Positions 16,547 through 19,322 of a stretch of DNA of 64,000 bases are shown here, piece by piece. This DNA is from Escherichia coli (lineage in GTDB: Bacteria; Pseudomonadota; Gammaproteobacteria; Enterobacterales; Enterobacteriaceae), in NCBI RefSeq assembly GCF_003334335.1, contig NZ_QOWQ01000018.1. The stretch is one strand, 5' to 3'. The notes under the pieces are model-generated. The model had not been told where the DNA came from and searched no databases. It worked only from the letters and a program-made list of their open reading frames with translations. Made by a program: the position numbers and the translations under genes. Position 1 is the stretch's first letter, and each line of letters opens with the position of its first letter.

Positions 16547-17509
16547 GTGATGATCAAAACGCGTTTTTCTCGCTGGCTAACGTTTTTTACGTTCGCCGCT
16601 GCCGTGGCGCTGGCGCTACCGGCAAAAGCCAACACCTGGCCGCTGCCGCCAGCGGGCAGTCGTCTGGTTGGCGAAAACAAATTTCATGTGGTGGAAAATG
16701 ACGGTGGTTCTCTGGAAGCCATCGCCAAAAAATACAACGTCGGCTTTCTCGCTCTGTTACAGGCTAACCCCGGCGTTGATCCTTACGTACCGCGCGCGGG
16801 CAGCGTGTTAACGATCCCGTTGCAAACCCTACTTCCAGATGCGCCGCGCGAAGGCATTGTGATCAACATTGCGGAGCTGCGTCTCTATTACTACCCGCCG
16901 GGTAAAAATTCGGTAACCGTGTATCCAATAGGTATTGGTCAGTTAGGTGGTGACACGCTGACACCGACAATGGTGACCACCGTTTCAGACAAACGTGCAA
17001 ACCCAACCTGGACGCCAACGGCAAACATCCGCGCCCGTTATAAAGCACAGGGAATTGAGTTGCCTGCGGTAGTGCCGGCTGGACCGGATAACCCAATGGG
17101 CCATCATGCGATTCGTCTGGCGGCCTATGGCGGCGTTTATTTGCTTCATGGTACGAACGCCGATTTCGGCATTGGCATGCGGGTAAGTTCTGGCTGTATT
17201 CGTCTGCGGGATGACGATATCAAAACACTCTTTAGCCAGGTCACCCCAGGCACCAAAGTGAATATCATCAACACTCCGATAAAAGTCTCTGCCGAACCAA
17301 ACGGTGCGCGTCTGGTTGAAGTACATCAGCCGCTGTCAGAGAAGATTGATGACGATCCGCAGCTGCTGCCAATTACGCTGAATAGCGCAATGCAATCATT
17401 TAAAGATGCAGCACAAACTGACGCTGAAGTGATGCAACATGTGATGGATGTCCGTTCCGGGATGCCGGTGGATGTCCGCCGTCATCAAGTGAGCCCACAA
17501 ACGCTGTAA
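16547..17509 (+). CDS. ldtC: L,D-transpeptidase LdtC (YcfS)
   Basis: LysM-like N-terminal region plus YkuD-type domain with HGT...SSGCIRL catalytic motif; signal peptide. Confidence 0.9.
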   Translation: MMIKTRFSRWLTFFTFAAAVALALPAKANTWPLPPAGSRLVGENKFHVVENDGGSLEAIAKKYNVGFLALLQANPGVDPYVPRAGSVLTIPLQTLLPDAPREGIVINIAELRLYYYPPGKNSVTVYPIGIGQLGGDTLTPTMVTTVSDKRANPTWTPTANIRARYKAQGIELPAVVPAGPDNPMGHHAIRLAAYGGVYLLHGTNADFGIGMRVSSGCIRLRDDDIKTLFSQVTPGTKVNIINTPIKVSAEPNGARLVEVHQPLSEKIDDDPQLLPITLNSAMQSFKDAAQTDAEVMQHVMDVRSGMPVDVRRHQVSPQTL

Positions 17510-17550
17510 AGCCCGGATAAAAAAATCCCCGCGACACGGCATGTCGCGGG
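17508..17550 (-). terminator. Rho-independent terminator for bhsA (minus strand)
   Basis: CCCCGCGACACGGCATGTCGCGGGG hairpin; on the minus strand it is followed by a T-tract (plus strand ATAAAAAAAT). Confidence 0.7.
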
Positions 17551-17590
17551 GAAAAAATCAGCAGTAGCAGGCATTAATGAGGGTTAATGC

Positions 17591-17848
17591 TTATTTATAA
17601 ATTACTGCTGTTCCATGGAGGGTATTCGGACCGGTTACAGAAGTAATACGGAAAGATTTTGCGCCCATCTCATCCGCTTTTTGCGCCAGCTGCTCTTCCA
17701 GCGATCCCAGATTTGTCCCCGCGTTAGCACTGATTGTACCGACTTTTTGTTGGCCTTCTGGCGTTGACTGAACTTCGACAGCCGCAAAGCTGGCAAATGA
17801 CATGGAGCTTAAAATCGCCGCAGCGATGAGGGTTTTTACGTTTTTCAT
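17591..17848 (-). CDS. bhsA: Stress/biofilm outer-membrane protein BhsA (YcfR; DUF1471)
   Basis: 85 aa with signal peptide; recognised sequence. Confidence 0.9.
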   Translation of the reverse strand: MKNVKTLIAAAILSSMSFASFAAVEVQSTPEGQQKVGTISANAGTNLGSLEEQLAQKADEMGAKSFRITSVTGPNTLHGTAVIYK

Positions 17849-17916
17849 AATAGTGGCCTTATGCAGATGAATGACGTCGCAAGCAATTACTTAACGATCG
17901 ATAACTAAATGATAGA

Positions 17917-17932
17917 TGTGATCTGGATCACA
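17917..17932. promoter_or_regulatory. Perfect TGTGA-N6-TCACA palindrome (CRP-type or repressor operator candidate) in the bhsA-comR divergent region
   Basis: TGTGATCTGGATCACA read directly from the sequence. Confidence 0.4.
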
Positions 17933-18088
17933 TACAAGATATTTTTTATAACAATCATTAATTAATTTAAAAATCTTTAAATTTCAGTTAAATAGAAAGC
18001 AATTATTTTTATGGGATCTGGACTGGTGAACGGAGGTGATTATTTTTATAATAACCTTTCATTCACAGTCACCAGGTACAACGGCATC

Positions 18089-18721
18089 ATGGCAACTGAC
18101 TCAACACAATGTGTAAAAAAAAGCCGTGGCCGCCCAAAAGTGTTCGACAGGGATGCCGCGCTTGATAAGGCCATGAAATTGTTCTGGCAACACGGTTATG
18201 AAGCGACTTCTCTTGCGGACCTCGTCGAAGCGACCGGAGCCAAAGCGCCCACGCTATACGCGGAATTTACCAACAAAGAGGGGTTATTTCGTGCCGTTCT
18301 CGACCGCTATATCGATCGTTTTGCCGCTAAGCATGAAGCACAGCTGTTTTGTGAAGAGAAAAGCGTGGAGTCTGCGCTGGCTGACTATTTTGCTGCCATC
18401 GCCAACTGCTTTACCAGCAAAGACACCCCGGCAGGCTGCTTCATGATCAACAACTGCACCACCCTCTCCCCAGATTCAGGAGATATCGCCAATACGTTGA
18501 AATCACGCCATGCGATGCAAGAGCGCACTTTGCAGCAGTTTTTATGTCAACGACAAGCGCGCGGGGAAATCCCGCCCCACTGTGACGTGACACATCTGGC
18601 AGAATTCCTTAATTGTATTATTCAGGGGATGTCGATCAGCGCACGCGAAGGTGCATCGCTGGAAAAACTGATGCAGATTGCCGGAACGACTTTGCGTTTA
18701 TGGCCCGAACTGGTGAAATAA
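18089..18721 (+). CDS. comR: TetR-family copper-responsive repressor ComR (YcfQ)
   Basis: TetR HTH (ATSLADLVEATGAKAPTLYAEF); start set at MATDSTQ (210 aa). Confidence 0.9.
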   Translation: MATDSTQCVKKSRGRPKVFDRDAALDKAMKLFWQHGYEATSLADLVEATGAKAPTLYAEFTNKEGLFRAVLDRYIDRFAAKHEAQLFCEEKSVESALADYFAAIANCFTSKDTPAGCFMINNCTTLSPDSGDIANTLKSRHAMQERTLQQFLCQRQARGEIPPHCDVTHLAEFLNCIIQGMSISAREGASLEKLMQIAGTTLRLWPELVK

Positions 18722-18726
18722 GTCGC

Positions 18727-18760
18727 AAAAAAAGCCCCTCAGCCTGAGCGAATGAGGGGC
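18727..18760 (-). terminator. Rho-independent terminator for ycfJ
   Basis: GCCCCTCA...TGAGGGGC hairpin followed on the minus strand by TTTTTTT. Confidence 0.75.
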
Positions 18761-18782
18761 CAAATTGCAGAGTACAGCCTTG

Positions 18783-19322
18783 TTATACTTTGTTATTCAA
18801 AATCAGTTGCCCGTTGCTATCTAGCGGGATCTGCGTACCCGGATCGCGGTCCATGCGGATTTTGCCCTGCTGATCGCCAATCTTATAGGTCACATCATAA
18901 CCGAGCATTTTTTCTGACTTGTCATACACCGTTTTACAACGCTGTTGCGTAGTCGTGTAAGTATCGCTTTCCTGGAGAGAGCCCTGGATCTGGTTACCGG
19001 CATATCCACCACCCAGCGCCCCCACAACAGTGGCGACATCTTTACCGCGACCACCACCAAACTGATGCCCTATCACGCCGCCAGCAACAGCGCCGAGCAC
19101 CGACCCGGTAATGCGATTTTCATCCTGCACCGGTCGACGATGGGTCACTGTGACGTTGCGACACTCCTGACGCGGTGTTTTAACCGTTTCCTTGATTGGG
19201 GTTGCAGAAACAACCTGAGCGTATTGCGGGCCCCGTTCAAACACGTTCAGACTGGCCACTGCCGCTACGCCCAGCGCAGCTGCGACACCAATCCCGATAC
19301 CCGCCAACATTGATTTATTCAC
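18783..19322 (-). CDS. ycfJ: Glycine-zipper membrane protein YcfJ
   Basis: Gly-rich glycine-zipper segments (GAVAGGVIGHQFGGGRG); start set near VNKSMLAG. Confidence 0.85.
   Translation of the reverse strand: MNKSMLAGIGIGVAAALGVAAVASLNVFERGPQYAQVVSATPIKETVKTPRQECRNVTVTHRRPVQDENRITGSVLGAVAGGVIGHQFGGGRGKDVATVVGALGGGYAGNQIQGSLQESDTYTTTQQRCKTVYDKSEKMLGYDVTYKIGDQQGKIRMDRDPGTQIPLDSNGQLILNNKV

What the first reader, a model, noticed from the sequence alone, without database searches (positions are those of the whole stretch)
17849..18088. Perfect TGTGA-N6-TCACA palindrome in the AT-rich bhsA-comR divergent region
TGTGATCTGGATCACA (17917-17932) matches both half-sites of the CRP core consensus exactly and lies in the 240-bp AT-rich divergent promoter region. 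It could be a CRP site or the operator of the adjacent TetR-family repressor ComR, which controls bhsA.
Basis: seen in the sequence. Interest (0 to 1): 0.3.

Follow-up and report, generated by a model that had tools for sequence, protein, structure and literature searches.

The report
Known CRP site in bhsA promoter
The palindrome is a real, near-consensus binding site for the global sugar-sensing regulator CRP in the E. coli bhsA-comR control region; published genome-wide binding studies already list it, so it is ordinary.

Summary
TGTGATCTGGATCACA lies at 17917-17932 in the 240-bp, 31% GC spacer between bhsA (minus strand) and comR (plus strand) of an E. coli K-12-type chromosome.

It is a CRP site, and it is already known:
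- The same 16-mer is printed as a CRP ChIP-seq peak at ycfQ/bhsA in ETEC H10407.
- The ycfQ<>bhsA spacer is a CRP genomic-SELEX target in K-12.
- EcoCyc/RegulonDB-derived lists give bhsA as CRP-cAMP regulated, with CRP as repressor.

My own tests agree:
- Against a matrix built from 106 other ChIP-seq CRP sites it scores 21.3 of a possible 21.95 bits, above every one of them.
- A matching site sits at the same place in all 76 Enterobacteriaceae spacers examined. The half-sites are conserved and the four central bases vary.

The site fills the spacer of a conserved sigma-70-like bhsA promoter (TTGACG-N18-TATCAT; E. coli TTGTAT-N17-TATCAT). Its centre is about -22.5, so promoter occlusion, meaning repression of bhsA, is the likeliest mechanism. 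This is inferred, because no transcription start data could be obtained.

The ComR-operator alternative is not favoured. A separate, near-invariant palindrome (TATCGATCGTTAA, 17892-17903, at the predicted start site) is the better operator candidate.

Novelty: already known. Interest: low.

The parts
17917..17932 (.). CRP core site TGTGATCTGGATCACA. The 22-bp site is 17914-17935; centre 17924.5 = MG1655 1168996.5.
   Evidence: sequence; 21.33 of 21.95 bits, above all 106 other ChIP-seq CRP sites; the same 16-mer is listed as a CRP ChIP-seq peak at ycfQ/bhsA; genomic SELEX target; conserved in 76 spacers.
17920..17929 (.). Two Dam GATC sites inside the CRP site (17920-17923 and 17926-17929). 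The one at 17920-17923 lies in the half-site next to the predicted -10 and is invariant across species.
   Evidence: A GATC in the bhsA non-coding region shows time-dependent Dam methylation in K-12 ZK126 (PMC5155068). Which GATC it is could not be mapped.
17909..17914 (-). Predicted bhsA -10 hexamer TATCAT, 2 nt downstream of the CRP site. Predicted start is about 17902 (A; MG1655 about 1169019), giving a 54-nt 5' UTR.
   Evidence: A TA...T hexamer (mostly TATCAT, TATGAT or TATTAT) lies 1-2 nt after the site in 72 of 73 spacers. It is part of the top-scoring bhsA-direction promoter in 67 of 73. The start site is inferred, not measured.
17932..17938 (-). Predicted bhsA -35 region. E. coli has TTGTAT (17937->17932, 17-nt spacer) or CTTGTA (17938->17933). 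64 of 73 spacers have TTGACG or TTGACC abutting the CRP site.
17884..17911 (.). Second palindrome (O1). Core TAACGATCGATA at 17892-17903, centre 17897.5, 27 bp from the CRP centre and about +5 relative to the predicted start. Candidate ComR operator.
   Evidence: 28-bp palindrome, 82% complementary. TATCGATCGTTAA is nearly invariant and sits at a fixed +27 (64 of 73) or +26 (9 of 73).. The assignment to ComR is an inference.
17949..17960 (.). Weaker O1-like element (O2), TAACAATCATTA, 30 bp upstream of the CRP centre. In other genera it is TAACGATCGTTA with about 1 mismatch. It is followed by a conserved TTATAAAAA tract that resembles an UP element.
   Evidence: Its centre is poorly conserved, so function is doubtful.
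17591..17848 (-). bhsA (ycfR/comC) coding sequence, 85 aa, DUF1471 family; the likely regulated gene.
18089..18721 (+). comR (ycfQ) coding sequence, 210 aa, TetR family.
   Evidence: PF00440 + PF16925.
18024..18052 (+). Predicted comR promoter TGGTGA-17-TATAAT (-10 at 18047-18052). The CRP centre lies about -134.5 from its predicted start.
   Evidence: top comR-direction promoter, with the -10 ending 33-39 nt from the comR ATG in 68 of 73 spacers..

Best explanation
The palindrome is a high-affinity operator for the cAMP receptor protein (CRP). A CRP dimer with cAMP bound recognises the two half-sites TGTGA and TCACA.

The site occupies the whole spacer between the -35 and -10 elements of the conserved sigma-70-type bhsA promoter, centred at about -22.5. 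Bound CRP should therefore exclude RNA polymerase. bhsA would be repressed when cAMP is high (poor carbon supply) and released when glucose lowers cAMP.

ComR most likely acts separately, through the adjacent palindrome at the transcription start. The stress and copper signal and the carbon signal would then converge on one core promoter.

What is shown: CRP binding (published, in vivo and in vitro), site quality, and conservation. What comes from curated databases at second hand: CRP as repressor of bhsA. What is inferred: the promoter position and start site, the occlusion mechanism, and the ComR operator assignment.
For: Binding.
- CRP ChIP-seq in ETEC H10407 lists TGTGATCTGGATCACA at ycfQ/bhsA (PMC4287617).
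- CRP genomic SELEX on K-12 DNA lists ycfQ<>bhsA (PMC3105977).
- An EcoCyc-derived table gives bhsA as regulated by CRP-cAMP (PMC5155068).

Site quality.
- It scores 21.33 of 21.95 bits on a matrix built from 106 other ChIP-seq sites, above all of them (median 13.0). The next-best window position scores 12.1.
- The published ptsG CRP site is recovered third in the window, which serves as a control.

Conservation.
- All 73 spacers from at least 15 genera, plus 3 Klebsiella spacers, carry the site 76-84 bp upstream of the bhsA ATG.
- The half-site positions are at or near 2.0 bits; the four central positions are at 0.46-0.81 bits. The profile follows the information profile of the CRP matrix (Spearman 0.62, p=0.01).
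- The 86 bp around the site are at least 99% identical in 5094 of 5424 complete E. coli genomes.

Mechanism.
- TTGACG abuts the site upstream in 59 of 73 spacers, and a TA...T hexamer (mostly TATNAT) follows 1-2 nt downstream in 72 of 73.
- This is the best bhsA-direction promoter in 67 of 73 spacers.
- A feed-forward-loop study built from EcoCyc/RegulonDB places bhsA in type InCoh2 and states that CRP acts as repressor in that type (PMC6121374).
- A Klebsiella DUF1471 paralogue, KP1_4563, is CRP-repressed, with a footprint 49-85 bp upstream of its ATG (PMC5521740).
Against: - No experimental transcription start site for bhsA could be retrieved, so the -22.5 position rests on sequence prediction and conservation.
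- In E. coli itself the -35 is weak (TTGTAT). An upstream candidate promoter (TTCACC-17-AATAAT, 18030..18002, minus strand) scores as well (7.8 against 7.2) and is the one suggested in PMC3946193. From that promoter the CRP site would lie at about +70.
- The repressor sign comes to me second-hand, through a paper that compiled databases. I could not read the primary source.
- The half-site next to the -10, GATCACA, is invariant even at positions where CRP has little preference. This hints at an additional constraint.
Confidence: 0.62

Rival explanations
1. The palindrome is the ComR (TetR-family) operator, alone or shared with CRP. ComR dimers bind it to repress bhsA and are released by copper.
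For: - It is the most conspicuous inverted repeat in the E. coli spacer (8+8 nt) and lies inside the predicted core promoter, a classic repressor position.
- ComR binds the bhsA (comC) promoter region in vitro according to reviews of Mermod et al. 2012. The site is quoted as '60 bp upstream of comC', which is not far from 69-84 bp.
Against: - The 8+8 palindrome is specific to Escherichia. Across genera only the CRP-type pattern TGTGA-N6-TCACA is kept, and the inner bases vary.
- CRP occupancy fully explains the site.
- A second palindrome, TATCGATCGTTAA, is nearly invariant, sits on the predicted start site, and spans 36-63 bp upstream of the ATG. This fits '60 bp upstream' at least as well.
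- The primary ComR paper could not be read.
Confidence: 0.08
2. CRP bound here activates transcription, either of bhsA from a promoter further downstream or of comR, in the way of Class I or Class II CRP-dependent promoters.
For: - Most CRP sites in divergent spacers are activating.
- In the ETEC study, CRP sites cluster about 40.5 and 92.5 bp upstream of start sites.
- A weak TAAGTA / AGTAAT -10-like stretch lies 24-31 nt downstream of the site.
Against: - No conserved -10 sits at the distance needed for a -41.5 site. The candidates would put the centre at -43.5 or -46.5, and they lie inside the invariant O1 palindrome.
- The comR promoter's conserved TATAAT puts the site at about -134.5, beyond the usual Class I range.
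- Database-derived lists give CRP as repressor of bhsA.
Confidence: 0.15
3. A chance palindrome in AT-rich DNA with no regulatory role, or a site that CRP binds without effect on transcription.
For: - 14% of shuffled 64-kb windows contain an exact TGTGA-N6-TCACA.
- Many ChIP-detected CRP sites have no measurable transcriptional effect (general knowledge of CRP ChIP studies).
Against: - The half-sites are conserved across at least 15 genera while neighbouring and central bases drift.
- The site keeps a fixed register with the -35, the -10 and O1.
- It is the strongest score among more than 100 in vivo sites.
- It is deleted together with bhsA in lineages that lost bhsA.
Confidence: 0.05

Closest known systems
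Canonical CRP (CAP) DNA site: consensus AAATGTGATCTAGATCACATTT, as at lac, gal, mtlA and yibI
   Same: - It has a two-fold symmetric TGTGA-N6-TCACA core and matches the 22-bp consensus at 18 of 22 positions.
- It carries the preferred TGTGATC / GATCACA inner bases.
- It is bound by CRP in vivo and in vitro according to published screens.
   Different: Most characterised sites sit at -41.5, -61.5 and similar positions and activate. This one is predicted to sit at about -22.5, inside the promoter spacer. It is closer to consensus than any of the other 106 ETEC ChIP-seq sites.
CRP-repressed promoters where CRP overlaps the core promoter (for example cyaA P2 and gal P2, from textbook knowledge), and the CRP-repressed DUF1471 gene KP1_4563 of Klebsiella (PMC5521740)
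   Same: The CRP site overlaps the elements that RNA polymerase recognises. The target belongs to the same DUF1471 protein family as KP1_4563, whose CRP footprint lies 49-85 bp upstream of its ATG. Here the site is 69-84 bp upstream.
   Different: Repression of bhsA by this site has not been shown directly in anything I could read. The exact filling of an 18-bp spacer by a 16-bp core is a feature of this locus.
TetR-family operators (tetO, the QacR IR1 site): palindromes that overlap the promoter of a divergently transcribed target gene
   Same: The gene layout is divergent (TetR-type regulator and target), and there are palindromes in the core promoter.
   Different: The sequence and conservation pattern of 17917-17932 are those of CRP. 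The TetR-type operator is more probably the neighbouring TATCGATCGTTAA palindrome. ComR binding to either element was not tested.
Nucleoprotein complexes in which CRP sits between operators of a specific repressor (NagC-CRP at nagE-nagB; CytR-CRP at deoP2), from textbook knowledge
   Same: A CRP site is flanked at fixed distances (-30 and +27 bp) by two copies of another palindromic motif.
   Different: Here the flanking operators are only 57 bp apart. The upstream copy is poorly conserved, and no interaction between ComR and CRP is known. This is a lead only.

Membership tests
CRP (cAMP receptor protein) binding site | Two-fold symmetric TGTGA-N6-TCACA core within a 22-bp site that scores well on a CRP matrix | tested here: met
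   Exact core. 21.33 of 21.95 bits on a matrix from 106 independent ChIP-seq sites, above all of them. 18 of 22 matches to the consensus.
CRP (cAMP receptor protein) binding site | Occupied by CRP in vivo | not testable with these tools
   Published: CRP ChIP-seq peak at ETEC H10407 coordinate 1274886, with this exact 16-mer, at ycfQ/bhsA (PMC4287617). The 86 bp around the site are at least 99% identical in 5094 of 5424 E. coli genomes.
CRP (cAMP receptor protein) binding site | Bound by purified CRP-cAMP in vitro | not testable with these tools
   Published: genomic SELEX-chip lists ycfQ<>bhsA among divergent-gene CRP targets (PMC3105977). One paper also cites a CRP gel shift on ycfR upstream DNA, but the cited source could not be read.
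CRP (cAMP receptor protein) binding site | Evolutionary conservation of the half-sites with free central bases | tested here: met
   73 + 3 spacers. Half-site positions are at or near 2.0 bits; the four central positions are at 0.46-0.81 bits. Spearman 0.62 (p=0.01) against the matrix information profile.
CRP (cAMP receptor protein) binding site | cAMP/CRP-dependent change in expression of the adjacent gene | not testable with these tools
   Second-hand only. bhsA is listed as CRP-cAMP regulated and placed in feed-forward loop type InCoh2, where CRP is a repressor, after a cAMP dose-response filter.
Class I / Class II CRP-activated promoter | Site centred near -41.5 (Class II) or -61.5/-71.5/-82.5/-92.5 (Class I) from a transcription start | tested here: not met
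   With predicted starts only, the centre is about -22.5 for bhsA and about -134.5 for comR. No measured start site was available, so this verdict is provisional.
TetR-family (ComR) operator | Palindrome that overlaps the promoter of the regulated, usually divergent, gene | tested here: inconclusive
   This holds for the palindrome at 17917-17932 and also for O1 at 17884-17911, so the feature does not discriminate between them.
TetR-family (ComR) operator | Bound by ComR and released by its inducer | not testable with these tools
   Mermod et al. 2012 was not readable. A review quotes a ComR site '60 bp upstream of comC', which is ambiguous between the two palindromes.
TetR-family (ComR) operator | Sequence co-inherited with the regulator and independent of other factors' motifs | tested here: inconclusive
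   Every spacer that has bhsA has both palindromes. In the four loci that lack bhsA but keep comR (L058, L062, L072, L073), both are gone. No bhsA locus without comR was found.

The most novel reading that the evidence does not exclude
CRP and ComR may not act independently. The CRP site lies in the promoter spacer and is flanked, at distances fixed across genera (-30 and +27 bp), by two copies of a TAACGATCGTTA-like palindrome. The sharp DNA bend that CRP induces could bring two ComR dimers together into one repression complex over the bhsA core promoter. Carbon status would then set how tightly the copper and stress signal is gated.

A second unexcluded twist concerns Dam methylation. The invariant GATC in the half-site next to the -10, together with the reported time-dependent methylation of a GATC in this spacer, could make occupancy sensitive to methylation.
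Probability: 0.12. Interest if true: 0.45.

Novelty: already known. Interest (0 to 1): 0.12.

Why it matters
bhsA (ycfR/comC) is one of the most widely stress-induced genes of E. coli and Salmonella. It affects biofilm formation, surface attachment and outer-membrane permeability to copper. Knowing that a near-consensus CRP operator sits inside its core promoter explains why its expression depends on carbon source. For reporter work, comR and crp effects must be separated. None of this is new in kind: the site is already in CRP ChIP-seq and SELEX lists and in curated databases. The small additions here are three. The site is placed relative to a conserved promoter. It is shown to be conserved throughout Enterobacteriaceae. 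A distinct candidate ComR operator is identified.

Tried and rejected
1. Primary papers. Mermod 2012 (ComR), Zhang 2007 (YcfR), Zheng 2004 (CRP regulon) and Thomason 2015 (start sites) are not held.
2. Start-site data. The Cappable-seq supplement is held, but it is cut at about 12% of the file and does not reach this locus.
3. Mapping the dynamically methylated GATC of Westphal 2016 (ZK126 positions 1072523/4) to one of the spacer's GATCs. I tried to calibrate the coordinate offset with the yccS site, but no consistent offset was found. There is probably an insertion or deletion between the two loci.
4. Looking for bhsA loci without comR, or comR without bhsA, to separate the two palindromes.
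   - Klebsiella has both genes and the same architecture.
   - The four comR-only loci have lost the whole bhsA promoter.
   - A TAATGATCGTT-like match upstream of comR in L058 and L062 lies in sequence homologous to the ordinary comR -10 region, so it is not independent evidence.
5. Rfam scan of the region. Only sub-threshold hits were found, on the bhsA 3' terminator.
6. The simple promoter scan found only the upstream TTCACC-17-AATAAT candidate, because the E. coli -35 is degenerate. The comparative scan was needed.
7. One literature search (ycfR, CRP, repressed, ROMA) was unproductive.

Full report
**What is there**

The window is an E. coli K-12-type chromosome. Positions 17400-18900 are 100% identical to MG1655 and many other strains, annotated ldtC, bhsA, comR and ycfJ. 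The window runs opposite to MG1655 numbering, so MG1655 position = 1186921 minus window position.

- bhsA (85 aa, DUF1471 family) occupies 17591-17848 on the minus strand.
- comR (210 aa, TetR family) occupies 18089-18721 on the plus strand.
- The spacer between them is 240 bp and 31% GC, against 52% for the window.
- TGTGATCTGGATCACA is at 17917-17932, exactly as reported. It is the only exact TGTGA-N6-TCACA in the window.
- The inverted repeat extends to ATGTGATC-tg-GATCACAT. The 22-mer matches the synthetic CRP consensus at 18 of 22 positions.

**Is it more than chance?**

On its own, a perfect core in 64 kb is not rare: 14 of 100 shuffles have one. Three further lines show it is not chance.

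*Matrix score.* I built a 16-position matrix from the 106 other CRP sites in the ETEC ChIP-seq table.
- The site scores 21.33 of a possible 21.95 bits, higher than every one of those in vivo sites (median 13.0).
- It is 9 bits above the next-best window position.
- The scan also recovers, third in the window, the published ptsG CRP site at 29188-29203. This is a useful control.

*Conservation between species.* I fetched 80 comR loci from different Enterobacteriaceae species. Of these, 72 have a divergent bhsA and a spacer of about 240 bp.
- Every one has a CRP-type site 76-84 bp upstream of the bhsA ATG. Three Klebsiella loci do too.
- The half-sites are at or near 2 bits, while the four central bases vary freely (0.46-0.81 bits).
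- The conservation profile follows the information profile of the CRP matrix (Spearman 0.62, p=0.01).
- The longer 8+8 palindrome of E. coli is not conserved.

*Conservation within E. coli.* The 86 bp around the site are at least 99% identical in 5094 of 5424 complete genomes.

**What the literature already says**

- The same 16-mer is printed in Table 1 of Haycocks et al. 2015 as a high-confidence CRP ChIP-seq peak at ycfQ/bhsA in ETEC H10407 (PMC4287617).
- Shimada et al. 2011 list ycfQ<>bhsA among CRP genomic-SELEX targets (PMC3105977).
- Westphal et al. 2016 annotate bhsA as 'regulated by CRP-cAMP', using EcoCyc. They also report that a GATC in its non-coding region changes Dam methylation over time (PMC5155068).
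- A study of CRP feed-forward loops built from EcoCyc/RegulonDB places bhsA in type InCoh2 and states that CRP is a repressor in that type (PMC6121374).

So CRP binding at this site, and CRP control of bhsA, are already on record.

**How it most likely works**

Read in the bhsA direction, the conserved layout is:

1. An A/T-rich tract, GTTATAAAAA.
2. TTGACG, present in 59 of 73 spacers. Escherichia species have CTTGTA or TTGTAT instead.
3. The CRP site.
4. Two bases.
5. TAT(C/G/T)AT.
6. About six bases.
7. TATCGATCGTTAAG.

A simple sigma-70 scoring scheme (hexamer frequencies taken from memory) makes TTGACG-N18-TATNAT the best bhsA-direction promoter in 67 of 73 spacers.

- With the -10 at 17909-17914, the start falls at about 17902 (MG1655 about 1169019). 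The CRP centre is then at about -22.5, so the site fills the spacer between -35 and -10.
- A protein bound there should exclude RNA polymerase. This agrees with the repressor sign in the databases and with CRP repression of a Klebsiella DUF1471 paralogue.
- For comR, the conserved TGGTGA-17-TATAAT promoter puts the site at about -134.5, too far for a canonical direct effect.

There are three caveats.
- I could not obtain measured start sites.
- In E. coli the -35 is weak, and an upstream candidate promoter (TTCACC-17-AATAAT, 18030..18002) scores equally.
- The repression sign reaches me only second-hand.

**CRP or ComR?**

Nothing supports ComR binding to this palindrome.

- The neighbouring palindrome has its core, TAACGATCGATA, at 17892-17903 and extends to 17884-17911. 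It is more strongly conserved than anything else in the spacer.
- It sits at a fixed 27 bp from the CRP centre and covers the predicted start site.
- A review of the ComR paper gives the ComR site as '60 bp upstream of comC'. The second palindrome spans 36-63 bp upstream of the ATG. The CRP palindrome spans 69-84 bp.
- I therefore regard 17884-17911 as the probable ComR operator. This is an inference, not a test.
- A weaker copy of the same motif lies 30 bp on the other side of the CRP site (17949-17960). Its centre is poorly conserved.
- Natural experiments did not separate the two palindromes. Loci that lost bhsA lost both, and no bhsA locus without comR turned up.

**Verdict**

What this analysis adds is the position of the site inside a conserved core promoter, its conservation across the family, and a separate candidate ComR operator. 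Interest is low.

The least ordinary reading still open is that CRP and ComR form a joint complex on this promoter, or that the invariant GATC makes occupancy sensitive to methylation. I give that reading about 12%.

Noticed in passing
window 29188-29203: TTTGACGGCTATCACG is identical to the CRP site listed for ptsG in the ETEC ChIP-seq table. It is the third-best CRP matrix score in the window (12.06 bits).
   Followed up: partly
window 17519-17618 (minus strand): RefSeq annotates a small RNA, BhsB (b4832), over the 3' end of bhsA and its terminator. A GC-rich hairpin at 17526-17552 lies between the convergent ldtC and bhsA genes; the scan calls it as a minus-strand (bhsA-direction) terminator. 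Rfam gives only sub-threshold hits there.
   Followed up: no
window 18002-18012 and 18039-18049: A direct repeat, ATTATTTTTAT, occurs twice 37 bp apart. Both copies are nearly invariant across 73 spacers. The second contains the predicted comR -10 (TATAAT). The first, read on the other strand, gives the AATAAT of a candidate upstream bhsA promoter.
   Followed up: partly
window 18310-18321 (inside comR): TATCGATCGTTT is a third match to the operator-like motif TAACGATCGTTA. Three of the six window matches with 2 or fewer mismatches fall in this locus (shuffles give a mean of 1.95 for the whole window).
   Followed up: no
window 17932-17938; loci L001-L004 compared with L006-L080: Escherichia species carry CTTGTA/TTGTAT where 64 of 73 spacers have the near-consensus -35 TTGACG or TTGACC next to the CRP site. 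The Escherichia bhsA core promoter therefore looks weakened.
   Followed up: partly
L058, L062, L072, L073 (about 1380-1500): In Enterobacter sp. ENT03 (L058) and Pseudescherichia vulneris (L072) bhsA and its promoter are absent and ldtC is followed directly by comR. L062 (Enterobacter sp. Bisph1) and L073 (Escherichia sp. ESNIH1) also lack bhsA and have no strong CRP site upstream of comR, but their gene order was not checked. comR survives without its only known target.
   Followed up: partly
literature table; not in this window: yahO, ybiJ and yjfY also appear in the CRP ChIP-seq list. From my own knowledge of the Pfam family, all three are DUF1471 genes like bhsA. A Klebsiella DUF1471 gene is CRP-repressed. 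This suggests that CRP controls the family as a whole.
   Followed up: no
window 17920-17923: The GATC in the CRP half-site next to the predicted -10 is invariant in 73 of 73 spacers, although CRP has little preference at its G and A. A GATC in this spacer shows time-dependent Dam methylation in K-12 (PMC5155068). Which GATC it is could not be determined.
   Followed up: partly
window 17849-18088: Shimada et al. 2014 mark H-NS in the comR/bhsA spacer, which fits its 31% GC content.
   Followed up: no
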